IMG/VR virus record: IMGVR_UViG_3300017911_000527
Coordinates: 1 to 25,310 of that record
Source of the DNA: a virus
Taxonomy: Duplodnaviria; Caudoviricetes
Reading direction: 5' to 3' (one strand)
DNA length: 25,310 bases
A program made the translations under genes and the position numbers. The notes below the pieces were generated by a model. It was not told the DNA's origin. It did no database searches and worked only from the letters and a program-made list of their open reading frames with translations. Below are positions 1-25,310 of the stretch, in pieces (positions within the stretch are counted from its first letter, which is position 1; every line of letters begins with the position of its first letter).

Positions 1-96
1 GGTAATGACAGAGACGAAATTGAGTTCAACCTCAAGAAAAACTTAAAAGAGTGGGGCATAGCTCCACGGAAGATTGGCTTACCATCTAACTGGTAG
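1..96 (+). CDS. C-terminal end of a probable tail-associated protein (5' partial)
   Basis: Frame 1 is open from the window edge (GNDRDEIEFNLKKNLKEWGIAPRKIGLPSNW*) and lies upstream of the tail/lysis genes. Confidence 0.5.
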   Translation, partial: GNDRDEIEFNLKKNLKEWGIAPRKIGLPSNW

Positions 97-141
97 TCTA
101 ATTACGGACAAGGATGTCCTCAACTTTAAGAGGATATATAA

Positions 142-699
142 ATGACAAAGGCAAGAGATATTGCTGATAATAACTTAAGCTCATACTTAACAGAATACTC
201 AACACTAAACCCAGCTAAGTTAGACACAACTGGTACAATCCCTTCGGAACTGCTTGCGGATGTTGGGGGTGGTAAGGTGTTACAAGTTATTGAAGGATCG
301 ACTAATGCTGAATCATCTACAGGTACTTCTACATCTCAAGTAGATACCAACTTAACAGCATCAATAACACCAACAAACGAAAACAATAACCTTTTAGTTT
401 TTGTACACCAAGGTCTTACAAAGTTTAACGGTCATACCGCTTCTAAGTGTACAGTTAGACTATTACAAGATGGACTGGAACAGGCTTGTTTTGGTGATAT
501 GATCGGACACAACGATGCTGCTCAAAGGGAATACACACACGTTAGCGGTACGCATTTTGGTGTAGCTGGGACTACCAACCAAATTACCTTTAAGACAACA
601 ATTCAAAGTAGTGATGGTGGTAATTGGGTCGCTGGAGCGCAAGCAACTGGGACACAGCAATCAAAACAATCAATAGTGATATTTGAAATCGCAGCATAA
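142..699 (+). CDS. Tail fibre-related / virion structural protein
   Basis: SD GAGGA upstream; N-terminal MTKARDIA, 'GGGKVLQV' motif and C-terminal 'SIVIFEIAA', as recalled from small tail proteins of marine podophages; T/S/G-rich; precedes the lysis cassette. Confidence 0.6.
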   Translation: MTKARDIADNNLSSYLTEYSTLNPAKLDTTGTIPSELLADVGGGKVLQVIEGSTNAESSTGTSTSQVDTNLTASITPTNENNNLLVFVHQGLTKFNGHTASKCTVRLLQDGLEQACFGDMIGHNDAAQREYTHVSGTHFGVAGTTNQITFKTTIQSSDGGNWVAGAQATGTQQSKQSIVIFEIAA

Positions 700-709
700 A
701 GGATAAACA

Positions 710-931
710 ATGGAAGAACTAAAACCACGAATTGACCGCTTAGAGTGGCGTGTAGATTCACACTCGGAGCAGTTGACTCGACTCAACCAACAGACAGCAG
801 ACCTCAAAGTTGAGCTAAATAATATTAATAAATCGCTCATGCAAATAAAGTGGATTGCTGTAGGTGGGGCTATCGTCCTCGCTGGTCAATCTATGGGACT
901 AGGAAACTTCTTTAAACTTATAGGAGTGTAG
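710..931 (+). CDS. Coiled-coil + C-terminal TM protein (XhlA-like / holin-associated)
   Basis: Heptad-like N-terminus (RIDRLE..LTRLNQQTADLKVELNNI) followed by hydrophobic IKWIAVGGAIVLAG; first gene of the lysis cassette. Confidence 0.55.
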   Translation: MEELKPRIDRLEWRVDSHSEQLTRLNQQTADLKVELNNINKSLMQIKWIAVGGAIVLAGQSMGLGNFFKLIGV

Positions 932-932
932 T

Positions 933-1325
933 ATGTTAGGCGTAACAGACTTGATTGCTGGTATCTTTAAACCAGCAGCTCACCTCATTGATGAATTACA
1001 TACAAGTGAGGACGAGCGTTTAAAAGCAAAAGGGCATCTACTCGATGTTCAAGCTGCTGCAATGCAACGTGTGTTTGACTACGAAACTTCTCGTATCGAA
1101 GGACAACAAAAGATTGTCCAAGCGGAAGCTAAAAGCGAACACTTTATCGTAGCTGCGTGGAGACCTATTACAATGTTAACCTTTCTCGCACTTGCTGTAG
1201 GCGATACCTTCGGGTTCTTCGCTACGCCCCTTCGTGATGAAGCGTGGACGTTACTACAGCTAGGCTTAGGCGGTTACGTAGTAGGACGTAGTGGTGAAAA
1301 GATTGCAAAGGTGATGAAGGGATGA
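933..1325 (+). CDS. Holin (3TM / GTA-type holin-like)
   Basis: 'EAKS..F..AWRP' motif, hydrophobic segments and 'LGLGGYVVGRSGEK' C-terminal motif; ATGA overlap with the endolysin. Confidence 0.75.
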   Translation: MLGVTDLIAGIFKPAAHLIDELHTSEDERLKAKGHLLDVQAAAMQRVFDYETSRIEGQQKIVQAEAKSEHFIVAAWRPITMLTFLALAVGDTFGFFATPLRDEAWTLLQLGLGGYVVGRSGEKIAKVMKG

Positions 1326-1666
1326 AATATTTCAGCTTATACGAATTTAATTGTTCGTTCACAGGCAACAACGAGATGACTGATGAGTTTCTAGAAAAGA
1401 TAGACGCTCTTCGTGAAGCTTGTGGTTTCCCTTTCCACATCACAAGTGGTTATCGAGACCCTGTAGGACATCCTATAGAGGCTAAGAAAACCAGAGCTGG
1501 CACTCATGCACAAGGCATAGCTGCCGATATACAAGTAGTTAACGGAGTACAGAAGTATAAGATCATCGAAGAAGCTATTAAACTTGGCTTCAACGGTATT
1601 GGCGTGGCTGACACGTTCATTCATGTCGATCTTAGAGATTCTCTTCCAGTAGTTTGGAGTTATTAA
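1322..1666 (+). CDS. Endolysin, peptidase M15 family (D-Ala-D-Ala peptidase fold)
   Basis: Motifs YF..EF.C, ITSGYR, H..G.AADI, GIG...FIHVD.R. Confidence 0.9.
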   Translation: MKYFSLYEFNCSFTGNNEMTDEFLEKIDALREACGFPFHITSGYRDPVGHPIEAKKTRAGTHAQGIAADIQVVNGVQKYKIIEEAIKLGFNGIGVADTFIHVDLRDSLPVVWSY

Positions 1667-1872
1667 TGGATAATAAAATATTAGAAGAGTTGCACGAAAG
1701 TGTAGCTAAAGAATTACTAGCAAAAGTAAAGTCAGGTGAAGCAACTGCATCAGAATTGTCGGTTGCAACAAAGTTTCTCAAGGATAACGGAGCAGTAAAC
1801 GAAGTTATTACCGCAGAGTCTCCTATGGCAAACTTATTGGAGGCATTACCGTTTGAGGAGATGTCCCATTGA
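1666..1872 (+). CDS. terS: Terminase small subunit (T7 gp18-like)
   Basis: 'LEELHESVAKELLAKVKSGEATASELSVATKFLKDNG' is a gp18-type signature; start moved to ATG 1666 (TAATG overlap with the endolysin stop). Confidence 0.85.
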   Translation: MDNKILEELHESVAKELLAKVKSGEATASELSVATKFLKDNGAVNEVITAESPMANLLEALPFEEMSH

Positions 1873-2090
1873 GAAACTACAAAAAAGAATACGCAAACTA
1901 CCACAGTAAACCTGAACAAAGAAAAAAGCGCAGCAATAGAAACAAGGCTAGACGTTTAATGATAAAAGCAAAGGGTTCTGCTGCGGTAGCTGGTAAGGAT
2001 GTAGATCATAAGGACAGGAACGCTAATAACAATGCTACTTCAAACTTAAGAATTGCAAGTAGATCACAGAATAGGAGTAGAAATGGCTAA
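1869..2090 (+). CDS. Small HNH endonuclease
   Basis: R.YKKEY..YH N-terminus and DVDHKDRN..NN..SNLR....QNR HNH motif; TTG start overlapping the terS stop. Confidence 0.85.
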   Translation: MRNYKKEYANYHSKPEQRKKRSNRNKARRLMIKAKGSAAVAGKDVDHKDRNANNNATSNLRIASRSQNRSRNG

Positions 2091-2211
2091 ACGAGGATTG
2101 TACGCAAACATTAATGCAAGAAAAAAGAAAGGCATTAGCCGATCTAAAAAGAACTCTACAATATCACCTAAAGCTTACGCTAAATTAAAGATTGGGTTTA
2201 AGAAAAAATGA
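2083..2211 (+). CDS. Small Lys/Arg-rich hypothetical protein (42 aa; not in ORF track)
   Basis: MAKRGLYANINARKKKGISRSKKNSTISPKAYAKLKIGFKKK*; SD AGGAG; ATGA overlap with the next gene. Confidence 0.75.
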   Translation: MAKRGLYANINARKKKGISRSKKNSTISPKAYAKLKIGFKKK

Positions 2212-2447
2212 GTAAGTTTGCAGATTTGAAGATAAATAAACCAAAACGCACCCCCAGCCATCCAACCAAATCTCACATCGTAAAGACCAAAGTAAACGGT
2301 AAGGAAAAGATTATTAGGTTTGGAGAGCAAGGGGCTAAAACTAACCAAAGCGCAGCACAGCGCAAATCTTTTAAAGCCCGACATAGAAAGAACATCGCTA
2401 AAGGTAAATCTTCAGCGGCTTGGTGGGCGAATAAGGTGAAGTGGTGA
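2208..2447 (+). CDS. Conserved basic hypothetical phage protein
   Basis: NKPKRTP.HPTKSH.V...IIRFG.QG....RKSFKARH....SAAWWANKVKW pattern recalled from aquatic phages; overlaps the upstream ORF. Confidence 0.75.
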   Translation: MSKFADLKINKPKRTPSHPTKSHIVKTKVNGKEKIIRFGEQGAKTNQSAAQRKSFKARHRKNIAKGKSSAAWWANKVKW

Positions 2448-2451
2448 CACT

Positions 2452-4122
2452 ATGGAAAAGATACCAGAGCAACTTAAAGACTTCCGCAACTTTATGTTCA
2501 TTGTTTGGAAGCATCTTAACTTGCCTGAGCCAACTCCAGTACAATATGATATTGCAGATTACATACAAAAAGCCCCGAAGAGGGCAATCATTGAAGCATT
2601 TCGTGGTGTAGGTAAGTCCTATATCACAGCAGCTTTTGTCGTTCACCAGCTTCTACTTGATCCACAGAAGAAGTTCATGGTTGTGTCAGCTAGTAAACAG
2701 AGGGCTGACGATTTCTCGACATTCACTCAACGCTTAATTCTAGAACTCCCAATATGTCAACACCTTATAGCAAAAGAAGGACAGAGGTGGAGTAAGATTG
2801 CGTTTGACGTAAGACCCGCACTGGCTAGTGGTAGCCCTTCTGTTAAATCAGTAGGTATCACAGGTCAGTTGACGGGCAGTCGTGCAGATATAATCATTGC
2901 GGATGACATCGAAGTACCTAACAACTCGATGACACAGATGATGAGGGAGAAACTAAGCGAAGCCGTTAAGGAATTTGATGCTGTTCTAAAACCTGACGGT
3001 AAAATACTCTATCTTGGTACGCCCCAATGCGAAATGAGTCTTTATAATACACTCACAGAGCGTGGTTATCAGATGAGAGTCTGGACAGCACGTTACCCTA
3101 CCATAGAAGGCGCAGAAAAGGCGTATGGGAATCGTTTAGCACCTACCCTATGGGATGCTATGCACGAAGCAGAAGAGCCGTTAGACGGCAAACCAGTCGA
3201 TCCTAAGCGATTTACTGATGAGGATTTGCTGGAACGGGAGCTATCTTATGGACGCTCAGGGTTTGCTTTACAGTTTATGTTAGACACAAGCTTATCTGAC
3301 ACCGACAGATACCCACTTAAATTATCTGATTTAATGGTTATGTCGATTGATAAGGATAAAGCACCCGAGAAGCTCATATATGGCGTTTTCAAGGAGGTTA
3401 AAGACCTACCTAATGTGGGGCTAGGGGGTGACAAGTATTACGCCCCAGAATCCATTATAGGAGACTACGTGGACTATGACGGTTCAGTGTTAGTTATTGA
3501 CCCCTCTGGTAGAGGTCAGGATGAAACAGCCTATGCTGTCGTTAAGATGCTTAATGGTTACTTATATGTAGCAGACTGTGGTGGTATAGCTGGCGGTTAT
3601 AGTGAAGCTACACTAACGAAGTTATCTAACTTAGCGAAGGAACATAAGGTTAATGTTGTACTCATTGAGAGTAACTTTGGTGACGGTATGTTCACAGAGC
3701 TGCTTAAACCTATAATAAGAAAGATATATCCTGTAACAATGGAAGAGGTACGTCATAGTAAGCAGAAAGAACTGCGTATCATAGACACCTTAGAGCCTGT
3801 TATGAATCAGCACAAGCTCATCATAGACCCTAAAGTTATCCAAAAGGATTACGATAGCGTACAGCACCATCCCCCTGAGAAAGCTCAGAGGTATATGTTA
3901 ACGTACCAAATGACTCGCATCACTAAGACAAGAGGTGCATTAGCCCATGACGATAGACTAGATGCTCTAGCGATGGGTGTAGCATACTGGGTAGAACAGA
4001 TGGCAGCAGATGCGGATGCTGAGATGAAAGACAGGCAGGAACAGCTACTAATGGATGAGTTAGATAAGTTTGTTAATGGACATAATACAGCAGGAAGAGG
4101 TAGTAGTATGAGGTGGATGTAA
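2452..4122 (+). CDS. terL: Terminase large subunit (T7 gp19-like)
   Basis: Walker A AFRGVGKS, Walker B IIIADD, 'LGTPQ', nuclease DPSGRG.DE, ESNFGDGMF and HDDRLDALA motifs. Confidence 0.97.
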   Translation: MEKIPEQLKDFRNFMFIVWKHLNLPEPTPVQYDIADYIQKAPKRAIIEAFRGVGKSYITAAFVVHQLLLDPQKKFMVVSASKQRADDFSTFTQRLILELPICQHLIAKEGQRWSKIAFDVRPALASGSPSVKSVGITGQLTGSRADIIIADDIEVPNNSMTQMMREKLSEAVKEFDAVLKPDGKILYLGTPQCEMSLYNTLTERGYQMRVWTARYPTIEGAEKAYGNRLAPTLWDAMHEAEEPLDGKPVDPKRFTDEDLLERELSYGRSGFALQFMLDTSLSDTDRYPLKLSDLMVMSIDKDKAPEKLIYGVFKEVKDLPNVGLGGDKYYAPESIIGDYVDYDGSVLVIDPSGRGQDETAYAVVKMLNGYLYVADCGGIAGGYSEATLTKLSNLAKEHKVNVVLIESNFGDGMFTELLKPIIRKIYPVTMEEVRHSKQKELRIIDTLEPVMNQHKLIIDPKVIQKDYDSVQHHPPEKAQRYMLTYQMTRITKTRGALAHDDRLDALAMGVAYWVEQMAADADAEMKDRQEQLLMDELDKFVNGHNTAGRGSSMRWM

Positions 4123-4144: not shown

Positions 4145-4163
4145 CTCTAACCTTCCCCTATAG
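4145..4163 (+). promoter_or_regulatory. Phage RNAP promoter (right-end, phiOR-like position)
   Basis: CTCTAACCTTCCCCTATAG(GAGA), a 17/19 match to the copies at 13769 and 22098; ends in T7-like CTATA+G; just after terL. Confidence 0.8.
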
Positions 4164-9631: not shown

Positions 9632-9784
9632 ATGTTATTTAAGCTAGGTAGATATGAAGTATGTGTAGGTAAATGCCTGTGGGATTGGTACAAACTACCT
9701 CGAATATACTTTAGAAAGGCTGATATGTTCATCAGCTGGTTAGGGGGTTGTATTGTCTGGTCGAGACTTAAAAGAACATCTTAG
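9632..9784 (+). CDS. Small hypothetical protein (50 aa; not in ORF track)
   Basis: SD AAGGAG; MLFKLGRYEVCVGKCLWDWYKLPRIYFRKADMFISWLGGCIVWSRLKRTS*. Confidence 0.6.
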   Translation: MLFKLGRYEVCVGKCLWDWYKLPRIYFRKADMFISWLGGCIVWSRLKRTS

Positions 9785-10064
9785 AATACTAACAGAGTTT
9801 AGAAAGATAGACCCTTGGATGCACATTCAAACGGTCTACGCTTTTGTAACCATTGCTCAAAGAACATTTGTAAACAACGAGGAGTTACGAGTAATGGATG
9901 TAGGAGAGTTGATGGAAACATCCAGTGCTAGTGCAAGTAGAAACTTACGAGTGCTAGTAGATCACGACTTAATTAAACTTTACGAAAATCCAGACAGGCG
10001 TATTGAGAAGTTTGTCGAAGTAACAAAGCTTGGGAGAGCTTTAGCTAGGAGGATAAAATTATGA
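9753..10064 (+). CDS. MarR-like winged-helix transcriptional regulator
   Basis: 'FRKIDP.M..QT..AF..IA', HTH 'VMDVGELMETSSASASRNLRVL' and wing 'NPDRRIEKFVEVTKLGR'; ATGA overlap with the integrase. Confidence 0.85.
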   Translation: MSGRDLKEHLRILTEFRKIDPWMHIQTVYAFVTIAQRTFVNNEELRVMDVGELMETSSASASRNLRVLVDHDLIKLYENPDRRIEKFVEVTKLGRALARRIKL

Positions 10065-11068
10065 GTGTTAAACCTAGAGGTAATGGATGGGAAGCATACG
10101 TAACCTTCAAAGGTAAAAAGTTCAGGCGTACTCTCTCCACTAAGGAAGATGCTACTGTATTGGAGGCAATGTGGCAGAGGGAGATAGCTCAGGGCAAGAT
10201 GCCTACCAAGATGGACGTAGACAAGGAGACAGGTAAAGCGTCAGGCTGGTCGTTACGTCAAGCGATGAACCGTTGCCACGAAAACTACTGGCGCGATAGT
10301 AAAAACGAGTTCCAGATTATTTATATCCAGAACATTATCTGTAAATACTGGGGAGAAGATACTCCAATAAACAGAATCAGCACCAGTGCTGTTTTTAACT
10401 GGATTAGATATATGAAGGAGGATCGTGGTTACGCTCCATCAACGTGTAACAGACACATCTCAGTCCTCAAGCGTTGCTTAGACAATGCTGTTGACGAAGG
10501 CGCATTAACTACAGTACCGAAGTTTAAACGCCAGAGTGAGAAGGGCAGAGAGAGGTTGGAGTTCTTCACCAAGGAGGAAGAGGAATCCATCCTAGCGGAG
10601 TTCAAGCGTATGGGTGAGGACTACCTATATGACTATGCTATCGTGGCTGTAGATACAGGTATGAGAGCCTCAGAGGTACTCAAGATAGACGGTACTTTAC
10701 ACCAGCTACAACAGACCCGTGATGACGGCAGTCCAATCTACGGTGTGTATGTACCAGATAGGAAGAACGGTGAGCCTTTATTGATGCCCGTGACTAAACG
10801 AGTTGAAGAGGTAATCCGTAGACGTAAGAAGTTCAAGACACATATTAGTAACCACCGCTTCGCGTGGGATCAGGTTCGATCAAAGCTAGGTCTTGATAAT
10901 AAATGCTGGCACTCGTGGAGACATACCACGGCTACCAGACTAACAGCGAAGGGCTGGGATACTGCAAATATCATGCGATACATGGGTCACAAAAACATTG
11001 CAACCACATTGAAGTATGCTAAATGGAATACAGATACGTTGGTTGGTGGCTCTAGTTTACTTGAATAA
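10061..11068 (+). CDS. int: Tyrosine integrase
   Basis: N-terminal arm-binding-like region, 'APSTCNRHISVLK', catalytic R (DTGMRASE), K (RKNGE), H..RH (HSWRHT), 'MGHKNIATTLKY'. Confidence 0.95.
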   Translation: MSVKPRGNGWEAYVTFKGKKFRRTLSTKEDATVLEAMWQREIAQGKMPTKMDVDKETGKASGWSLRQAMNRCHENYWRDSKNEFQIIYIQNIICKYWGEDTPINRISTSAVFNWIRYMKEDRGYAPSTCNRHISVLKRCLDNAVDEGALTTVPKFKRQSEKGRERLEFFTKEEEESILAEFKRMGEDYLYDYAIVAVDTGMRASEVLKIDGTLHQLQQTRDDGSPIYGVYVPDRKNGEPLLMPVTKRVEEVIRRRKKFKTHISNHRFAWDQVRSKLGLDNKCWHSWRHTTATRLTAKGWDTANIMRYMGHKNIATTLKYAKWNTDTLVGGSSLLE

Positions 11069-11070
11069 TG

Positions 11071-11317
11071 CTTGTGTCCTGTGTGTCCTAGAGTGTCCCA
11101 AGTGGCGTGTGAGGTGAAGAGAAAATGACAGAATACTTAGAGGAGAGATGGGTGAGTGGCTTAAACCACAGGTTTGCTAATCCATTGAAACCTTATCACG
11201 CCACCGTAACAAGTTTTAATTAAACAAAGGAAGATGAAACACATTCCAAATAATCCTTTGCTCCGCTACCGTAGGAAGTAATGAGCAAAGCCACAGTAAA
11301 GCTAATAAGTGTCCCAA
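11071..11317 (+). mobile_element. attP: attP region with GTGTCC arm-type repeats
   Basis: GTGTCC at 11074, 11083, 11093 and 11309; identical AGTGTCCCAA at 11092-11101 and 11308-11317 on opposite sides of the tRNA-derived core; immediately downstream of int. Confidence 0.75.
11142..11180 (+). other. attP core = 5' half of tRNA-Ser(GCU) (fragment, not a full tRNA)
   Basis: GGAGAGA-TG-GGTGAGTGGCTTAAACC-A-CAGGT-TTGCTAA gives the acceptor 5' strand, D arm, anticodon 5' strand and loop with GCT; the expected ACCTG, variable arm and T arm are absent. Confidence 0.85.
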
Positions 11318-11328
11318 AAGGAGGCAAC

Positions 11329-12111
11329 ATGGCAACATTGGAACAACAAATTGAGTTGGAGTATGAGATGGTTCAGTCAGGTATTGACCGCTACCACCGC
11401 CAGCTAATGGATTTATTGGAAAAGGATTTAGGCTCAAAGACTAAGCATGGTCGAACCATAATCAAAGGTATTCTTGACCCAGTTCAAGCTGCGATTGAGG
11501 ATCATTGTAAGGTAGACCGAAACCACAACAGGGCTACGTCCAAGACACTGCTCAAAGGTATGGACGCTGGTAAGGTTGCGTACCTTGCACTAGTCTGTTT
11601 GATTGACAACCTAGCCAACAATGGGACGCTGTTAAAGGTTGCCCGTAACATAGGTATACAAGTTGAGACGCAGAAGAGGTTGGATACGTGGTTGAAGCAG
11701 GATAAAGAAGTAGCTCAGAATATGATTAAGGAAGCCAACAAGAAGTCAGACAAGGGTTTTCACCATAAGCGTTACGGGCTTGACCACAAGATTAAACACG
11801 ATGGTGTTGACCTACCAGCGTGGACAGCTCAAGAAAGAATTAACGTAGGTATTAAACTGGTAGACCTAATCATATCTGCGACAGGGATTGTAAAGCTTGA
11901 GAAGAAAATACAGAAAAGGAAAACTGTTTACCATGTCGTACCCACGAAGGAGACAGAAGAGTGGATTAAGGCATTTAACGAAACTAACGAGATAGCACTA
12001 CCACGTTACAGCCCGTGTATTATTGAGCCTAAAGACTGGGATGGGTTCTGGGGTGGTGGTTACTATTCTGAACACATAAACAAACTACCGTTCGTGAGGG
12101 TACACGCATGA
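11329..12111 (+). CDS. T7-type RNA polymerase, N-terminal (promoter-binding) part
   Basis: Best start ATG 11329 (SD AAGGAGG; alternative 11281); 'LEQQIELEYEM...G..RY', 'W....RINVGIKLVDLII..TG' and 'PRYSPCIIEPKDW.G..GGGYY.....LPFVRVH' match T7 RNAP up to about residue 301. Confidence 0.9.
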   Translation: MATLEQQIELEYEMVQSGIDRYHRQLMDLLEKDLGSKTKHGRTIIKGILDPVQAAIEDHCKVDRNHNRATSKTLLKGMDAGKVAYLALVCLIDNLANNGTLLKVARNIGIQVETQKRLDTWLKQDKEVAQNMIKEANKKSDKGFHHKRYGLDHKIKHDGVDLPAWTAQERINVGIKLVDLIISATGIVKLEKKIQKRKTVYHVVPTKETEEWIKAFNETNEIALPRYSPCIIEPKDWDGFWGGGYYSEHINKLPFVRVHA

Positions 12112-13766
12112 GACAAGCCGCACAAGATTATGTAAACGCACTACAGCAGTGTGACCTGAGTCTAGAGTACCAGTGTGTTAACGCTCTACAGCGTACACCG
12201 TGGCGTATAAACGAGTTCGTGGTTGATACTCTACGCCAGTGTTGGGATAGCGGTCAGGAGTGGGAGGGATTACCACCACGGGACAACCTGAGCCTACCTA
12301 AGTACCCGTTCAGCAAAGAGCCGCAATACTTAAACGATGAAGAGAAGGCTAAGTTTAAGCAGTTCAAGTCTGACCGTAACAAAATACATTCGCACAACAA
12401 CAAGTCGATGTCGAAGCGTATCCAAGTGGAGCGTACCATCCAGCTTGCAGAGCAGTACAAAGACATTGAGAAAATGTGGTACGTTTGGCAGTTAGACTTC
12501 CGTGGACGCAAGTATCCAGTAGAATCATTCTTGTCTCCACAGAACGCTGACTACAGTAAAGCATTGTTAGAGTTTGCAGAAGGCGTGATAGTATCTAATG
12601 ACGATGATGCTAGGTGGCTGGCTATACACGGGGCGAACGTATTCGGTGTTGATAAGGTAAGTTTGGAAGATCGAGAGATGTGGGCGTACATGAACGTACA
12701 GAACGCTGTTGATGTTTATAACGATCCTTTAACAAACAAATGGTGGCAGGAAGCAGACAAACCTTGGCAAGCACTGGCATGGTGTTATGAGTGGGCGTTA
12801 TACAACAACGCTAGACAGTTCGGTGAGCCTTTCTATACTCACCTACCTTGTGCAAGTGATGGCAGTTGTAACGGACTACAGCACCTATCTGCAATGTTAA
12901 GAGACTTGGAAGGTGGTCGAGCAGTAAACCTCACCCCCAACGAAACACCTCAAGACATTTACACGGATGTAGCGAAGCGAACAGTTGAGTTGTTAGAGAA
13001 GGAAGACACGTTGATGGCTCGACAGTTGTTAGAGATGGGCGTGTGCCGCAAGATATGTAAACGTCCCGTGATGATTGTGCCGTACTCAGGGACACAGCAC
13101 AGTTGCCGTGATTACATACTGGAGGCAATGGAAGAGAAGTGTAAAGGGAATAATCCTTGGAATGATGACTTGTGGAAGCCAGCAACCTACCTAGCTAAGT
13201 TTGTTTGGAAAGCCATCAACGAAGTTATCGTATCAGCACATAAGGTAATGGGATACATCAAGGAGATTGCAAAACTGTACAGTCAGGAAGGCAAGCCGTT
13301 TGAATGGTTAACACCTACAGGTTTACTTGTAAGACAGTCGTATAGTAATACTAAAAAGTTACGGATATGGACGCACCTCAGCGGGTCAGTTGTAAAACTA
13401 AATTATAGACAGCCGCTAGAGAAGACCATTGATGTACGTAAGAGTGTGAGCGGGGCTAGTCCAAACTTTGTACATTCGCTTGATGCCGCAGCTCTTACAC
13501 TAACCGTGGACAAATGTTTGAAGGAAGGAATAACTGACTTCGCTATGGTTCACGACAGTTATGGTACACATTGTACAAATATGCCGAAGCTCAATGAGAA
13601 GCTAAGGGAAGCTTTTGTCGAGATGTATCGTGACAATGATGTACTGCTTAATCTCTACGATAGTGCAGTATCTACACTACAGGAGGATACGGATATACCA
13701 AAACCTCCAGAAAGAGGAAGCTTAGCTATAGAGGAGGTATTGAATAGTGATTACTTTTTTGCATAG
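12108..13766 (+). CDS. T7-type RNA polymerase, catalytic C-terminal part
   Basis: 'VNALQRTPWRIN', DFRGR, motif A DGSCNGLQH, motif B RKICKRPVMIVPYS, PNFVHSLDA, motif C HDSY, terminal DYFFA. Confidence 0.97.
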   Translation: MRQAAQDYVNALQQCDLSLEYQCVNALQRTPWRINEFVVDTLRQCWDSGQEWEGLPPRDNLSLPKYPFSKEPQYLNDEEKAKFKQFKSDRNKIHSHNNKSMSKRIQVERTIQLAEQYKDIEKMWYVWQLDFRGRKYPVESFLSPQNADYSKALLEFAEGVIVSNDDDARWLAIHGANVFGVDKVSLEDREMWAYMNVQNAVDVYNDPLTNKWWQEADKPWQALAWCYEWALYNNARQFGEPFYTHLPCASDGSCNGLQHLSAMLRDLEGGRAVNLTPNETPQDIYTDVAKRTVELLEKEDTLMARQLLEMGVCRKICKRPVMIVPYSGTQHSCRDYILEAMEEKCKGNNPWNDDLWKPATYLAKFVWKAINEVIVSAHKVMGYIKEIAKLYSQEGKPFEWLTPTGLLVRQSYSNTKKLRIWTHLSGSVVKLNYRQPLEKTIDVRKSVSGASPNFVHSLDAAALTLTVDKCLKEGITDFAMVHDSYGTHCTNMPKLNEKLREAFVEMYRDNDVLLNLYDSAVSTLQEDTDIPKPPERGSLAIEEVLNSDYFFA

Positions 13767-13768
13767 TT

Positions 13769-13787
13769 CTCTAACCACCCCCTATAG
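13769..13787 (+). promoter_or_regulatory. Phage RNAP promoter (replication genes)
   Basis: CTCTAACCACCCCCTATAG right after the RNAP stop; identical to 22098-22116. Confidence 0.85.
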
Positions 13788-13817
13788 CAATCCTTAACTA
13801 ACTTAAACAATATAGGA

Positions 13818-14441
13818 ATGAAAAATATGGCGAAAAATTTACTAGTATTAGAAGGTAAGGCAATGTGGGCTAAGGTGTTTGAGCCTGATACAAAGTTCAA
13901 CCCAGCGGGTGACTACAGTATCAATCTACAAATGACTGAAGCTGATGCCGCACCAATGTGTGAGAAATTAGAAGGGATAATTCAAGAGACATTCAACAAG
14001 GCAGTTAAAGAAAAGCCACAGTTGAAAAACACTCTGACCACACAAGATGTTATGCAACCTGTTTACGATAGGGATACTGGAGACCCTACAGGTGATGTTG
14101 AATTTAAGTTTAAACTAAAAGCTAAGATTCAGAAGAAGGACGGTACGTGGTACGAACAAGAACCAGTTGTCTTAGACTCTAAGAAGACACCGCTAAATGG
14201 TGACACTCTTATTGGTAACGGTTCAAGAGTTAAAGTTGCGTTCGAGCCTATTCCCTACATCATGCAATCAACCAAGAAGGTAGGAACATCTTTACGGTTG
14301 AAAGCCATTCAGGTGATTGACTTGGTTGAGTACGGTAACTCAGCCGCAAGCGTGTTTGATGAAGAAGACGGATTTGTTACCCCCTCCGCTAACGAGTCTT
14401 CTGAGTCAGCTGAGGTGTTTGCTGATGCCAGTGACTTCTAG
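13818..14441 (+). CDS. ssb: Single-stranded DNA-binding protein (T7 gp2.5-like)
   Basis: 'WAKVFEPDTKFNPAG.Y', 'IGNGSRVKV', 'LRLKAIQVIDLVEY'; acidic tail ending in F. Confidence 0.92.
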   Translation: MKNMAKNLLVLEGKAMWAKVFEPDTKFNPAGDYSINLQMTEADAAPMCEKLEGIIQETFNKAVKEKPQLKNTLTTQDVMQPVYDRDTGDPTGDVEFKFKLKAKIQKKDGTWYEQEPVVLDSKKTPLNGDTLIGNGSRVKVAFEPIPYIMQSTKKVGTSLRLKAIQVIDLVEYGNSAASVFDEEDGFVTPSANESSESAEVFADASDF

Positions 14442-22097: not shown

Positions 22098-22116
22098 CTC
22101 TAACCACCCCCTATAG
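22098..22116 (+). promoter_or_regulatory. Phage RNAP promoter (late/structural genes)
   Basis: CTCTAACCACCCCCTATAG(AGAG) at the start of the structural module. Confidence 0.85.
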
Positions 22117-22537: not shown

Positions 22538-24088
22538 ATGAACGATCAATCTTTAGCCAAACAATATGAAAACATGGCAGCAGATCGTGACGCTTTTCTC
22601 TCCAGAGCTAGGTCTTGCGCTGAGTTAACAATACCTACACTTATGCCACCTGATGGACATAACGGGTCTACTCAGTACAACACACCTTTCCAATCAGTAG
22701 GTGCTAGAGGCGTAAACAACTTAGCATCAAAACTACTGATGACTCTTCTCCCTCCCAACCAAGCATTCTTCCGTCTAACTATTGATGACTATGATTTAGT
22801 CGAGTTAGGAGGAGATGCGCGTGGTAAGGCAGAAGAAGCGTTAGCTCGTATAGAGAGATCAGCAACACAGGTTATCGAATCAAAAGCTATTCGAGTACCG
22901 ACATTTGAAGCTTTAAAACAACTTATCGTAAGCGGTAACGCCTTGGTACATTTACCCCCTAAAGGCGGTATGAAAGTCTTTAGACTTGATCGTTATGTAG
23001 CAAACCGTGATTCAATGGGTAATGTAGTAAAAATCATTACCAAGGAAACTATATCCTACGAAGCATTACCTAAAGATGTTATGGAAGTCTTACTTGAAAA
23101 CCCTGAGTACCAAGTAGATACCAACAAGAAAGAGTGCGATATTTACACTTGTGTTAAACGAGTTGGTAATAAATACGAAGTACATCAGGAAGTACATGAC
23201 ATTGTTATTCCTTCATCTACAGGCTCTTATTCACAAGAGAAACTGCCTTGGATGGCTTTACGTTTTATTGCTGTCGATGGTAATGACTATGGTCGTTCTT
23301 TCTGTGAAGAAATTGTAGGCGATTTAAAATCACTAGAAGCTTTAACAAGAGCCATCGTGGAAGGTAGTGCCGCATCTTCTAAATTACTATTCATGGTTAG
23401 ACCTAACGGTACGACAAAGATGCGTAGTATTGCAGATGCACCTAACGGTGGTATTGTATCAGGCGATGCTAACGATGTTACCACATTACAAGCTAATAAA
23501 TTTAATGACTTCCGAGTCGCACAAGAGACAATGCAGAAAATAACTGAGCGTTTGTCTTTTGCTTTCCTCCTTAACAGTTCAGTCCAACGACAAGCTGAAC
23601 GTGTAACAGCTGAAGAAGTTCGTTACATGGCACAAGAGTTAGAGACCGCACTAGGTGGCATCTACTCAGTGTTATCTCAAGAGTTCCAAGTGCCTCTTGT
23701 CAACCTCCTCCTAGCTAAAATGCAGAAGGAAGGAAAGATGCCTAAGTTCCCTAAAGATACATTGAAGCCACAGATCGTAACTGGTTTGGAGGCTCTAGGT
23801 CGTGGACAAGACTTAAACAAACTTTCTACATTCTTACAATACTTACAACCTTTAGGTCAGGAAGTGATTGCACAAGAACTAAACATTGATGATTACATAG
23901 ATCGTTTAGGTGCATCCCTTGGTATTGACACGCAAGGTCTTGTGAAGTCTGAAGAACAGAAAGCACAGGAACAAGAAGCAGCTATACAAGCCCAACAACA
24001 ACAACAAATGATGGCGATGGCTGAGAAAGGTGTAGCTCCAGCAGTTAAAGGTATGGTTGATGCGGCTCAACAACCAATGGAAGAGTAA
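22538..24088 (+). CDS. Portal / head-tail connector (T7 gp8-like)
   Basis: QSVGARGVNNLASKL, YGRS..EE..GDL.SLE.L, AERVTAEEVR, TGLEALGRGQDL motifs. Confidence 0.97.
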   Translation: MNDQSLAKQYENMAADRDAFLSRARSCAELTIPTLMPPDGHNGSTQYNTPFQSVGARGVNNLASKLLMTLLPPNQAFFRLTIDDYDLVELGGDARGKAEEALARIERSATQVIESKAIRVPTFEALKQLIVSGNALVHLPPKGGMKVFRLDRYVANRDSMGNVVKIITKETISYEALPKDVMEVLLENPEYQVDTNKKECDIYTCVKRVGNKYEVHQEVHDIVIPSSTGSYSQEKLPWMALRFIAVDGNDYGRSFCEEIVGDLKSLEALTRAIVEGSAASSKLLFMVRPNGTTKMRSIADAPNGGIVSGDANDVTTLQANKFNDFRVAQETMQKITERLSFAFLLNSSVQRQAERVTAEEVRYMAQELETALGGIYSVLSQEFQVPLVNLLLAKMQKEGKMPKFPKDTLKPQIVTGLEALGRGQDLNKLSTFLQYLQPLGQEVIAQELNIDDYIDRLGASLGIDTQGLVKSEEQKAQEQEAAIQAQQQQQMMAMAEKGVAPAVKGMVDAAQQPMEE

Positions 24089-24105
24089 TTTAAAAAGAGA
24101 CTATT

Positions 24106-24897
24106 ATGACAGACAATATTAATACACATGAAGAACAAACAGAATCACAAGAACACGTTGAAGCAATGATCCAAAAAGGCGAAGAGTTAGAGGCGCGTAA
24201 CAACCCTAATCAAGAGGAGCGTCCTGATTGGTTGCCTGAAAAATTTAAGAACGTGGAACAGATGGCTGAAGCATACAGTCATCTAGAAAAGAAATTAGGC
24301 TCTGGTGAAAGTGAAGCGGAAGCACCTACTGAGGAAGCACCACAACAAGAAGCTCCTGAAGTAGACGCGACTGCAAGCGATGTTAAACAAGCAGTAGAAA
24401 ACGCTGGTGTTAACTTCGACTCACTACAGGCAGAGTATGATGAAAATGGGCAACTGTCTGAAGATGCTTACAACAAGTTATCGGAAGCGGGTTTCCCACA
24501 AGATTTGGTAAATAGTTGGATTGCGGGACAAGAAGCCCTAGCAAAAGATTACCAAACATCTGTCTACAATATTGTAGGTGGAGAACAAGCTTACAGCGAG
24601 ATGGTTAACTGGGCTGGCGAAAACTTATCTGAAAGTGAAGTAGCTGCCTACGACAGAGCTGTGAGTTCAGGAGACATTGAGATGGTCAAACTGGCTGTGT
24701 CAGGATTACAAACAAAGTATCAAGCTAATGAGGGTACAGACCCTTCTTTAATAGAAGGACAATCCAGTAACTCGTCAGGCGGTGTTTATAGCTCTTGGTC
24801 AGAAGTGACCTCAGCTATGAGAGACCCTCGATACAAGAGTGATCCAGCATACCGTCAGTCTGTTACGAACAAACTTGCTCGTAGCAACGTACAATAG
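24106..24897 (+). CDS. Capsid scaffolding protein (T7 gp9-like)
   Basis: RPDWLPEKF, GGEQAY..M..WA, AM.DPRY..DPAYR..V..KL motifs; acidic. Confidence 0.93.
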   Translation: MTDNINTHEEQTESQEHVEAMIQKGEELEARNNPNQEERPDWLPEKFKNVEQMAEAYSHLEKKLGSGESEAEAPTEEAPQQEAPEVDATASDVKQAVENAGVNFDSLQAEYDENGQLSEDAYNKLSEAGFPQDLVNSWIAGQEALAKDYQTSVYNIVGGEQAYSEMVNWAGENLSESEVAAYDRAVSSGDIEMVKLAVSGLQTKYQANEGTDPSLIEGQSSNSSGGVYSSWSEVTSAMRDPRYKSDPAYRQSVTNKLARSNVQ

Positions 24898-24907
24898 TCT
24901 CTTTTAT

Positions 24908-24929
24908 GCCCTCTTCGGGGGGCTTTTTT
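24908..24929 (+). terminator. Intrinsic terminator after the scaffold gene
   Basis: GCCCTC-TTCG-GGGGGC stem with C(UUCG)G loop, followed by T6. Confidence 0.85.
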
Positions 24930-25054
24930 ATAAGTAACGAAACACAGAATTAATTACCTTTGACCCCTGCGGGGACAATCTAAGCGGAAAGATTAAGTGT
25001 TAAGTGACTAAACATTAAACATTCATTTAAACATTTAACAAAAGGTAAATTATT

Positions 25055-25310
25055 ATGGCATGGAACAACGGAACAGAAACAGGAAGTGTATCCCGACTAG
25101 GTTCGGTTAACAACACTATTACTGGTGACGCTGGTAAATCTAGCAGAGAACTCTTTCTCAAGCAGTTTGCTGGTGAAGTATTAACATCATTTGAAGAGCG
25201 CAACATTGCAATGCCTCTACACAGAGTACGCACTATCTCTAATGGTAAGTCGGCTCAATTCCCTAGCATTGGTACTGCATCAGCAGAATACCACAAAGCT
25301 GGTGACACCA
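25055..25310 (+). CDS. Major capsid protein (T7 gp10-like), 3' partial
   Basis: MAWNNG...RELFLKQFAGEVLTSFEERNIAMPLHRVRTISNGKSAQFPSIG; SD AAGGT; open to the window end. Confidence 0.95.
   Translation, partial: MAWNNGTETGSVSRLGSVNNTITGDAGKSSRELFLKQFAGEVLTSFEERNIAMPLHRVRTISNGKSAQFPSIGTASAEYHKAGDT

What the first reader, a model, noticed from the sequence alone, without database searches (positions are those of the whole stretch)
11329..13766. Apparently naturally split T7-type RNA polymerase: two coupled genes broken at the T7 ~301 position
Seen: the RNAP is encoded by 11329-12111 (260 aa, ends ...GGGYYSEHINKLPFVRVHA*) and 12108-13766 (552 aa, all catalytic motifs intact). The join is a clean ATGA overlap with an SD-like GAGG (12096-12099) 8 nt before the second ATG. 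There is no homopolymer or slippery run at the join, and many genes in this window use the same coupling style. By eye, 'LPFVRVHA' aligns to T7 'LALVRTHS', so the break falls after about S301 with essentially no residues lost. Established: T7 RNAP is one chain, and its N-terminal domain binds promoter and refolds at promoter escape. From memory, engineered bisection of T7 RNAP tolerates a split near 301-302. N4 RNAPII is a natural two-chain T7-family enzyme, but it is split further downstream. Inference: this is a two-subunit phage RNAP with a separable, sigma-like promoter-binding subunit. It could be a control point in a temperate phage and a candidate orthogonal two-part polymerase.
Basis: partly seen in the sequence, partly recalled or inferred. 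Interest (0 to 1): 0.92.

Follow-up and report, generated by a model that had tools for sequence, protein, structure and literature searches.

The report
Naturally two-piece T7-type RNA polymerase
An uncultured marine T7-like phage encodes its RNA polymerase as two overlapping, conserved genes cut exactly where engineers found T7 polymerase can be split; the two proteins are predicted to assemble into one enzyme, and the same kind of split was already noted briefly in print for related ocean phages.

Summary
[quoted passage not shown] ORF2 (12108-13766, 552 aa) is the thumb/palm/fingers body with all catalytic motifs. They overlap in ATGA, and the break falls at T7 residue 300/301.

It is not an error. 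56 of 56 related viral contigs that hold the junction are split the same way. Contigs of four public runs show no indel. Both genes are under strong purifying selection (median dN/dS 0.036 and 0.048). No slippery site exists, and some relatives carry a spacer or an extra gene between the halves.

A two-chain fold scores 0.86 against 0.01 for controls. That pass may reflect likeness to solved T7 RNAP.

The break coincides with the 301-302 seam of Segall-Shapiro et al. 2014.

It is not new as a kind. Chen et al. 2019 noted "fragmented" RNAP genes in HTVC019P group III pelagiphages. I show here that HTVC025P and uvMED S30-C28 are cut at the same seam. This scan had also found the same arrangement on other DNA.

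The "sigma-like" and "control point" readings are untested, and the specificity loop lies in ORF2. The finding is a new member of a known but uncharacterised kind.

The parts
11329..12111 (+). ORF1: N-terminal-domain subunit of the RNA polymerase (260 aa, equivalent to T7 RNAP about 34-301)
   Evidence: Pfam RPOL_N E 2e-15. It aligns to T7 RNAP 34-300. The start at 11329 is shared by 31 of 31 distinct relatives' ORF1. Median dN/dS is 0.036 in 17 pairs.
11320..11324 (+). Shine-Dalgarno-like GGAGG, 4 nt before the ORF1 ATG
   Evidence: Read directly from the sequence.
12096..12099 (+). Shine-Dalgarno-like GAGG inside ORF1 (codons GTG AGG), 8 nt before the ORF2 ATG
   Evidence: Read from the sequence. 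GTGAGGGT or GTGAGGAT is kept in most relatives, and AAGG or AGGG in the more distant ones. AGG makes up 15% of Arg codons in 16 window genes. Its function as a ribosome-binding site is inferred.
12108..12111 (+). ATGA stop/start overlap joining the two genes (ORF2 in the -1 frame)
   Evidence: Among related loci, 54 have ATGA, 1 has GTGA and 1 has a 19-nt spacer, 56 in all. Contigs of 4 runs show no indel.
12108..13766 (+). ORF2: catalytic subunit (552 aa; thumb, palm and fingers; equivalent to T7 RNAP about 302-883)
   Evidence: Pfam RNA_pol E 4e-107. It aligns to T7 316-883. D130-R134 (DxxGR), D251, K318, Y326 and H482-D483 are invariant in 23 homologues. Median dN/dS is 0.048.
13769..13787 (+). 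Phage-promoter-like motif CTCTAACCACCCCCTATAG just after the RNAP genes
   Evidence: The 15-nt core has 3 matches in the window against 0.34 expected by chance; alignment. An equivalent element follows ORF2 in relatives and varies by lineage. Its function is inferred.
4145..4163 (+). Second copy of the promoter-like motif (2 mismatches), after the terminase gene
22098..22116 (+). Third copy of the promoter-like motif (exact), before the portal gene
10061..11068 (+). Context: tyrosine integrase directly upstream, preceded by a small regulator gene at 9753-10064
   Evidence: PHROG integrase 5.6e-38 and regulator 4e-9. The order regulator, integrase, RNAP, SSB, endonuclease is the same as in HTVC019P-type pelagiphages.

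Best explanation
The phage's T7-type RNA polymerase is encoded as two conserved, overlapping genes, and their products (a 260-aa N-terminal-domain subunit and a 552-aa catalytic subunit) are predicted to be made by coupled translation and to assemble non-covalently into one active enzyme. Shown: two separate reading frames cut at the equivalent of T7 residue 300/301; the cut is conserved across a large uncultured marine clade; both genes are under purifying selection; all catalytic motifs are in ORF2. Inferred: a ribosome finishing ORF1 at TGA restarts at the overlapping ATG, helped by the GAGG 8 nt upstream, which would give roughly equal amounts of both chains. Inferred: the last ~34 residues of ORF1 (227-260) dock on the first ~32 residues of ORF2 and on ORF2 113-142, the segment around DxxGR. 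By homology (recalled) this part of T7 RNAP stays rigid during the initiation-to-elongation change, so the complex would behave like a nicked T7 RNAP. Inferred: it transcribes from the CTCTAACCACCCCCTATAG-type promoters found three times in the window.
For: Homology and cut position.

Conservation of the split. 56 of 56 loci with an analysable junction are split, out of 63 related IMG/VR loci. ORF2 identity ranges from 62 to 88% and ORF1 identity from 53 to 87%. The best 120 homologues of ORF2 (56-99% identity) are all 393-559 aa with PF00940 only, and none is fused although lengths up to 966 aa were eligible. At least 15 of the 30 representatives of 300 aa or less in the 50%-identity library end at the same seam.

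Not an assembly error. Contigs of 4 of 4 runs from 4 studies show an identical junction and no indel; one may be the window's own source.

Both halves are functional genes. Median dN/dS is 0.036 for ORF1 and 0.048 for ORF2 in 17 pairs with unsaturated dS.

No fusion by frameshift. A canonical X_XXY_YYZ site occurs in 0 of 57 junctions. Relatives exist with a 19-nt spacer in another frame (L033), a 70-aa ORF between the halves (L071), or about 500 bp with two small ORFs (HTVC025P).

A cultured phage with the same cut exists: HTVC025P is an isolate.

Engineered T7 RNAP tolerates bisection at 301-302.

Two-chain fold. The score is 0.86 with best control 0.01. That mark was reached by 116 of 157 solved complexes and 2 of 215 mismatched pairs. 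The runs agree in at least 60% of contacts and the partner pLDDT is at least 71. The interface is ORF1 227-260 with ORF2 5-32 and 113-142. A like structure (single-chain T7 RNAP) is solved, so this pass shows likeness and may come from memory.

Promoter-like motifs.
Against: There is no experimental or expression evidence. Assembly, stoichiometry and activity are all inferred. The fold's pass may only reflect memory of T7 RNAP structures. The GAGG overlaps a conserved Val-Arg of the protein, so selection for a ribosome-binding site cannot be separated from selection on the protein. Two fused proteins (P0008, 790 aa; P0013, 808 aa) sit inside the window's clade, so the single-chain form is also viable there. 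Each of these two is a singleton on one contig.
Confidence: 0.85

Rival explanations
1. The N-terminal subunit is a truly separable, sigma-like initiation factor. On this reading it binds the catalytic subunit for promoter recognition and is released, exchanged or separately regulated after promoter escape, which would give a temperate phage a control point.
For: The two chains are separate polypeptides. In T7 the N-terminal domain carries promoter-binding elements and refolds at promoter escape (recalled). Some lineages have inserted extra small genes between the halves, which could uncouple their expression. An integrase sits upstream.
Against: The halves are tightly coupled by ATGA in 54 of 56 relatives, which favours equimolar co-synthesis over separate control. 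The predicted interface uses the ORF1 tail equivalent to the part of T7 RNAP that stays fixed (T7 part recalled). In T7 the N-terminal domain forms the RNA exit path in elongation (recalled). By homology to T7 (recalled), the specificity loop lies in ORF2. No second N-terminal-domain gene was seen in the window.
Confidence: 0.1
2. A single full-length chain is made by programmed -1 ribosomal frameshifting or another recoding event at the junction.
For: ORF2 is in the -1 frame of ORF1, and its frame is open for 12 codons before the ATG.
Against: No slippery heptamer occurs in 0 of 57 junctions, and the open window is only 1-26 codons. The sequence there varies freely among relatives. ORF2 always keeps its own start codon. 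L033, L071 and HTVC025P have spacers or whole genes between the halves.
Confidence: 0.03
3. The split is a sequencing or assembly artefact, or a recently broken, decaying gene.
For: None beyond the bare fact of a stop codon inside a gene that is normally single.
Against: Searches show conservation and no indel. One search gives dN/dS of about 0.04 on both halves. Chen et al. 2019 report that no unsplit reads mapped in their phage.
Confidence: 0.01

Closest known systems
Fragmented RNA polymerase genes of HTVC019Pvirus group III pelagiphages and uv-Fonsiphage-EPL (Chen et al. 2019, mSystems, PMC6811365; passages and section 7 read). Examples are Pelagibacter phage HTVC025P (MH598799) and uvMED S30-C28 (AP013543).
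   Same: A T7-like marine podovirus with an integrase upstream. The RNAP is encoded as an N-terminal-domain gene plus a catalytic gene of about 555 aa. The cut falls at the same place, T7 300/301.
   Different: ORF1 is only 23% identical to HTVC025P gp09, and ORF2 is 37% identical to gp12. The group III N-parts are longer (325-329 aa). HTVC025P has about 500 bp and two small ORFs between the halves, and S30-C28 has a 29-nt overlap, whereas the window has ATGA. The quick tree puts group III in another clade, but a tree holding both together is not rejected (p-AU 0.617). The paper gives two sentences and maps no cut site or mechanism.
Engineered split T7 RNA polymerase, seam 301-302 (Segall-Shapiro et al. 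2014, Mol Syst Biol, PMC4299498; sections 5-6 and supplements searched)
   Same: The break position is the same to within one residue. Both have two chains made from separate start codons.
   Different: The engineered version is a laboratory construct of T7 itself, and the 301-302 seam was not developed further in the sections read. The version here is natural, old and conserved.
Coliphage N4 RNAPII (gp15 269 aa + gp16 404 aa), the known natural heterodimeric T7-family polymerase (Lenneman and Rothman-Denes 2015, PMC4496689; passages read)
   Same: [quoted passage not shown]
   Different: N4 gp15 holds a truncated N-terminus plus the thumb and DX2GR, so the cut lies after DX2GR. Here DxxGR (D130-R134) is in the large subunit and the N-terminal domain is full length. 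The genome type here is T7-like, not N4-like.
Single-chain T7-like RNAPs of related isolates (pelagiphages HTVC119P, HTVC200P and HTVC022P, 814 aa; HTVC011P, 880 aa; Vibrio phage 1.204.O, 808 aa)
   Same: The gene neighbourhood and domain order are the same.
   Different: These are one continuous gene. Identity to the window's halves is at most 31% for ORF1 and at most 40% for ORF2.

Membership tests
T7-like single-subunit RNA polymerase family | N-terminal domain (Pfam PF14700) followed by the polymerase domain (PF00940) | tested here: met
   PF14700 is found in ORF1 (57 bits, cut-off 30.1) and PF00940 in ORF2 (359 bits, cut-off 22).
T7-like single-subunit RNA polymerase family | Catalytic motifs T/DxxGR, A (Asp), B (Lys, Tyr) and C (His-Asp) | tested here: met
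   ORF2 D130-R134, D251, K318, Y326 and H482-D483 align to T7 D421-R425, D537, K631, Y639 and H811-D812 (T7 residue numbers partly recalled). They are invariant in 23 homologues.
T7-like single-subunit RNA polymerase family | One polypeptide chain | tested here: not met
   There are two ORFs with a stop/start overlap. This is conserved in 56 of 56 relatives.
N4 RNAPII-type heterodimer | The small subunit carries the thumb and DX2GR, and the cut lies between DX2GR and motif A | tested here: not met
   DxxGR lies in ORF2, and the cut is at T7 300/301, before the thumb.
N4 RNAPII-type heterodimer | Truncated N-terminal domain and an N4-like genome with a virion RNAP | tested here: not met
   ORF1 covers T7 34-300. 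The window has a T7-like gene order and no giant vRNAP, but the record is only about 60% complete.
Fragmented RNAP of HTVC019P group III pelagiphages (Chen et al. 2019) | RNAP encoded as two genes cut between the N-terminal domain and the catalytic body | tested here: met
   The last N-part residue aligns to T7 300 (HTVC025P, S30-C28) and 301 (window).
Fragmented RNAP of HTVC019P group III pelagiphages (Chen et al. 2019) | Phylogenetic membership in group III | tested here: inconclusive
   The quick N-terminal-domain tree places group III (100*) outside the window's 18-row clade (99*). The AU test does not reject one joint clade (p 0.617, constrained lnL 8.4 higher). Core-gene phylogeny was not done.
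Engineered split T7 RNAP at seam 301-302 | Break after residue 301 or 302 of T7 numbering | tested here: met
Engineered split T7 RNAP at seam 301-302 | The two fragments reconstitute promoter-dependent transcription | not testable with these tools
   Only a predicted complex is available.

The most novel reading that the evidence does not exclude
The T7 300/301 seam is nature's preferred breakpoint in this polymerase family, used and reversed repeatedly. In split lineages the free N-terminal-domain protein has become a dissociable or exchangeable initiation factor, and its supply relative to the catalytic subunit gates the lysis-lysogeny decision or the switch between gene classes. Small genes inserted between the halves in some lineages would act as modulators.
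Probability: 0.08. Interest if true: 0.8.

Novelty: new member of a known kind. Interest (0 to 1): 0.42.

Why it matters
T7 RNAP is the textbook single-subunit polymerase and a workhorse of biotechnology. A large, abundant group of ocean phages makes it from two chains. The break is at the very residue that transposon bisection mapping found tolerant in the laboratory. That agreement independently supports the seam. It also offers ready-made two-part polymerase and promoter pairs that have diverged from one another; whether they are orthogonal is untested. Finally, it gives a natural system for asking whether the N-terminal domain must stay covalently tied to the body during the initiation-to-elongation refolding. 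The fact of the split is already in print and in GenBank annotation, and this scan has met it before. What remains open is the biochemistry, not the existence.

Tried and rejected
- Megablast of the locus against 50,697 phage records gave no match.
- The scan's earlier findings by place (relatives) returned nothing.
With P0012 it found no confirmed relative.
- RNA evidence: no RNA holder was listed among the 24 runs.
- The promoter and terminator scan of 10900-14000 found nothing above shuffles, and no signal between the halves.
- No tRNA was found in the window.
- Pfam on the ORFs inserted between halves in L071 and HTVC025P gave nothing above cut-off. One match to DUF5098 scored 19 bits against a cut-off of 27.
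- dN/dS of the window against relatives failed because dS was saturated. Closer pairs were used instead.
- Independent origin of the window clade and group III: the quick tree suggests it, but the AU test does not support rejecting one origin. I make no claim either way.
- Literature searches for a described natural split at this seam found no mapping of the cut or biochemistry. Only Chen et al. 2019 mentions it. The Zhao et al. 2018 preprint on HTVC025P (10.1101/410191, passages read) does not mention the split.
- PMC11475235 and PMC13733069 (passages read) were not relevant.
- Figure 1c and the figshare tables of Chen et al. were not seen, so I do not know exactly which genomes they marked.
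Full report
**What is in the sequence.** The window is a 25,310-base IMG/VR virus record, linear and about 60% complete.
- The ORF2 ATG (12108-12110) overlaps the ORF1 TGA (12109-12111) as ATGA.
- GAGG lies at 12096-12099, 8 nt before the ATG.
- ORF2 is in the -1 frame of ORF1, and its frame is open for only 12 codons upstream.
- Pfam finds RPOL_N in ORF1 (E 2e-15) and RNA_pol in ORF2 (E 4e-107).
- Against PDB sequences, ORF1 residues 5-259 align to T7 RNAP 34-300. ORF2 aligns to T7 316-883, with the envelope starting at 303.
- A joint alignment with T7 puts the last ORF1 residue at T7 301. ORF2 carries about five extra linker residues, so nothing is lost.
- DxxGR (D130-R134), D251, K318, Y326 and H482-D483 of ORF2 align to the T7 catalytic motifs. 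They are invariant in 23 homologues.

**Context.** PHROG hits give this gene order:
- holin, endolysin and large terminase;
- a run of small early ORFs;
- a regulator (9753-10064) and a tyrosine integrase (10061-11068);
- the two RNAP genes;
- a gp2.5-like SSB, endonuclease I, primase/helicase, DNA polymerase, exonuclease, MazG and ribonucleotide reductase;
- portal, scaffold and major capsid protein.

The order regulator, integrase, RNAP, SSB, endonuclease is that of HTVC019P-type pelagiphages, whose RNAPs are single 814-aa genes. No isolated phage is close. Identity is at most 31% for ORF1 and at most 40% for ORF2, and there is no megablast match.

**The split is real and old.** A scan of IMG/VR with ORF2 returned 63 loci at 62-88% identity.
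- In one search all 57 loci that reach the junction show a stop/start junction.
- In the formal table, 56 loci were analysable and 7 were not. Six of the seven start inside ORF2. For the seventh, L062, the best ORF2 match was broken.
- Of the 56, 54 have ATGA, one has GTGA (L023), and one (L033) has a small duplication that leaves a 19-nt spacer and a different frame relation.
- The ORF1 tails vary (VHA, VWA, VWT, VWS, IHA, VHT, VHGL), with many silent changes around the junction.
- The 31 distinct ORF1 proteins all begin at the ATG equivalent to 11329.
- In the 5.8-billion-protein collection, the best 120 relatives of ORF2 (56-99% identity) are 393-559 aa with PF00940 alone. None is fused, although proteins up to 966 aa were eligible.
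- Twenty public runs from 10 studies hold the stretch. Contigs of four runs from four studies cover 11900-12400 with no indel, at depths of 6-16. One of them may be the window's own source.

**Both halves are under selection.** Twenty-five loci were compared pairwise. Seventeen pairs had equal lengths and dS between 0.05 and 1.5 in both genes. Their median dN/dS was 0.036 for ORF1 and 0.048 for ORF2. Comparisons with the window itself were saturated in dS.

**A fused product is unlikely.** No X_XXY_YYZ heptamer lies in the 1-26 codons where a -1 shift could join the frames, in 0 of 57 junctions. Other lineages have physically separated the two genes:
- L033 has a 19-nt spacer.
- L071, in the lineage of protein P0007, has a 70-aa ORF inserted between the halves with TAATG overlaps on both sides. 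Its relatives L072 and L073 have a TGATG overlap.
- Pelagibacter phage HTVC025P has about 500 bp with two small ORFs between gp09 (329 aa) and gp12 (558 aa).

**How wide the split is.** A full HMMER search with ORF1 against 1.84 billion cluster representatives found 1,304 proteins at E of 0.001 or less.
- Among the best 150, 30 are 300 aa or shorter, and at least 15 of these end at the same seam (VRVH-, VRAH, MRVY, VRYR, IRRG, IKKY, VKGY and similar).
- These gene calls come from Tara, JGI, ENA and Logan. Where a source flags completeness, they are marked 'complete' and lie inside contigs of up to 51 kb.
- A quick N-terminal-domain tree of 83 rows places the 13 stand-alone N-terminal-domain representatives of 255-281 aa, 12 of which clearly end at the seam, in one clade of 15 (SH-aLRT 98). 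That clade also holds two fused proteins, P0008 (790 aa) and P0013 (808 aa). Each of these two is a singleton on one contig.
- A second tree of 62 rows adds T7, pelagiphages and Vibrio phage 1.204.O. It gives an 18-row clade (99) with 16 split and 2 fused rows.
- The same tree puts pelagiphage group III (HTVC025P split, uvMED S30-C28 split, HTVC011P fused) in a separate clade (100). At least five changes of state are needed on that tree.
- A tree that holds the two clades together is not worse: its lnL is 8.4 higher and p-AU is 0.617. The number of origins is therefore open.
- Whichever is true, split and fused forms are interleaved, so the state has changed more than once.

**The same seam everywhere, including in the laboratory.** In the joint alignment, the N-parts of the window, L040, L059, L071, L072, HTVC025P and uvMED S30-C28 all end at T7 residue 300 or 301. 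Segall-Shapiro et al. 2014 mapped 36 tolerated bisection points of T7 RNAP into five seams. The legend of their Supplementary Figure S3 lists these as 67-74, 160-206, 301-302, 564-607 and 763-770, and their Figure 2B data sheet has clones at 301 and 302. The natural cut coincides with the narrowest seam.

**Assembly.** A two-chain fold with alignments of 23 and 27 rows scored 0.86 (median of three runs) against 0.01 for the best of three controls.
- That mark was reached by 116 of 157 solved complexes and 2 of 215 mismatched pairs.
- The runs agree in at least 60% of contacts, and the partner pLDDT is at least 71.
- Confident contacts join ORF1 227-260 (plus residues 1-2 and 85) to ORF2 5-32, 113-142 and 406-418.
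- Single-chain T7 RNAP is solved, so this pass shows likeness and may come from memory. It does not show binding.
- The ORF1 tail is also the best-conserved part of ORF1: P225, P229, P234, W237 and G243 are invariant in 27 sequences.
- By recall (Yin and Steitz 2002; Tahirov et al. 2002; not read here), T7 residues from about 267 onward stay fixed while residues 1-266 refold at promoter escape. If so, the cut leaves about 35 rigid residues on the N-terminal chain as an anchor.

**Promoters.** The motif CTCTAACCACCCCCTATAG occurs at 13769-13787 and 22098-22116, and with two mismatches at 4145-4163. That is three matches of the 15-nt core against 0.34 expected by chance. An equivalent element follows ORF2 in relatives and differs by lineage. 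TATAG lies within 70 nt in 26 of 29 loci, though in 4 of these it lies about 45 nt downstream. In those 4, and in 3 others, the element at the homologous place reads CATAAG, CATAGG or GTTAAG. This fits a working phage polymerase that co-evolves with its promoters, but that is an inference.

**What is known.**
- Chen et al. [quoted passage not shown] They add that no unsplit reads mapped and that the interruption is not recent. They map no cut site and give no mechanism. Their Figure 1c and figshare tables were not seen.
- GenBank annotates two RNAP CDS in MH598799 and AP013543.
- N4 RNAPII is a different split. gp15 holds a truncated N-terminus, the thumb and DX2GR. gp16 holds palm, fingers and motifs A-C.
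- My other literature searches found no description of this seam or of the enzyme's biochemistry.
- Earlier notes of this scan describe the same arrangement on other DNA. One of them led me to Chen et al., which I then read.

**Verdict.** The enzyme is most likely (0.85) a heterodimeric T7-type RNAP made by coupled translation. The sigma-like and regulatory readings remain speculation. It is a new member, from an uncultured lineage with tight ATGA coupling, of a kind already noted in print but never characterised.

Noticed in passing
L071:2204-2416 (viral contig, lineage of protein P0007): A 70-aa ORF sits exactly between the two RNAP halves, with TAATG overlaps at both ends. The related contigs L072 and L073 lack it and have a TGATG overlap. 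It has no Pfam match.
   Followed up: partly
L033:590-635: A duplication of about 20 nt at the RNAP junction leaves a 19-nt spacer and a different frame relation between the halves. It may be a real variant or an assembly quirk.
   Followed up: no
L070:4766-5166 (Pelagibacter phage HTVC025P): Two small hypothetical genes (48 and 85 aa) lie between the two RNAP genes of this cultured phage. Neither has a Pfam match above cut-off.
   Followed up: partly
window 4145-4163, 13769-13787, 22098-22116: There are three copies of a 19-nt T7-promoter-like motif ending in CTATAG at module boundaries. The copy after the RNAP gene is positionally conserved in relatives, with lineage-specific sequence.
   Followed up: partly
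protein P0259 (489 aa, 80% identical to ORF2): NCBI nr names a close relative 'hypothetical protein [Porticoccaceae bacterium]'. This is a possible hint at the host (marine Gammaproteobacteria) or a binning artefact. The window's relatives come from seawater metagenomes, and one holder run is labelled freshwater.
   Followed up: no
proteins P0008 (790 aa) and P0013 (808 aa): Two continuous RNAPs sit inside the otherwise split clade. Each is known from a single contig. They are either re-fusions or indel errors.
   Followed up: partly
window 11069-11328: This is a 260-nt non-coding gap between the integrase and ORF1. In HTVC019P-type pelagiphages attP lies at this position (Zhao et al. 2018 preprint). 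No tRNA gene was found anywhere in the window.
   Followed up: partly
L062:2711-4316: The ORF2 match in this contig is broken into pieces, which may reflect a frameshift or an assembly error inside the catalytic gene. Its junction with ORF1 is still ATGA.
   Followed up: no
window 1-4122 versus 22538-25310: Lysis and terminase genes open the record, and portal, scaffold and capsid genes close it. The record is therefore a permuted or partial genome lacking the tail module.
   Followed up: no
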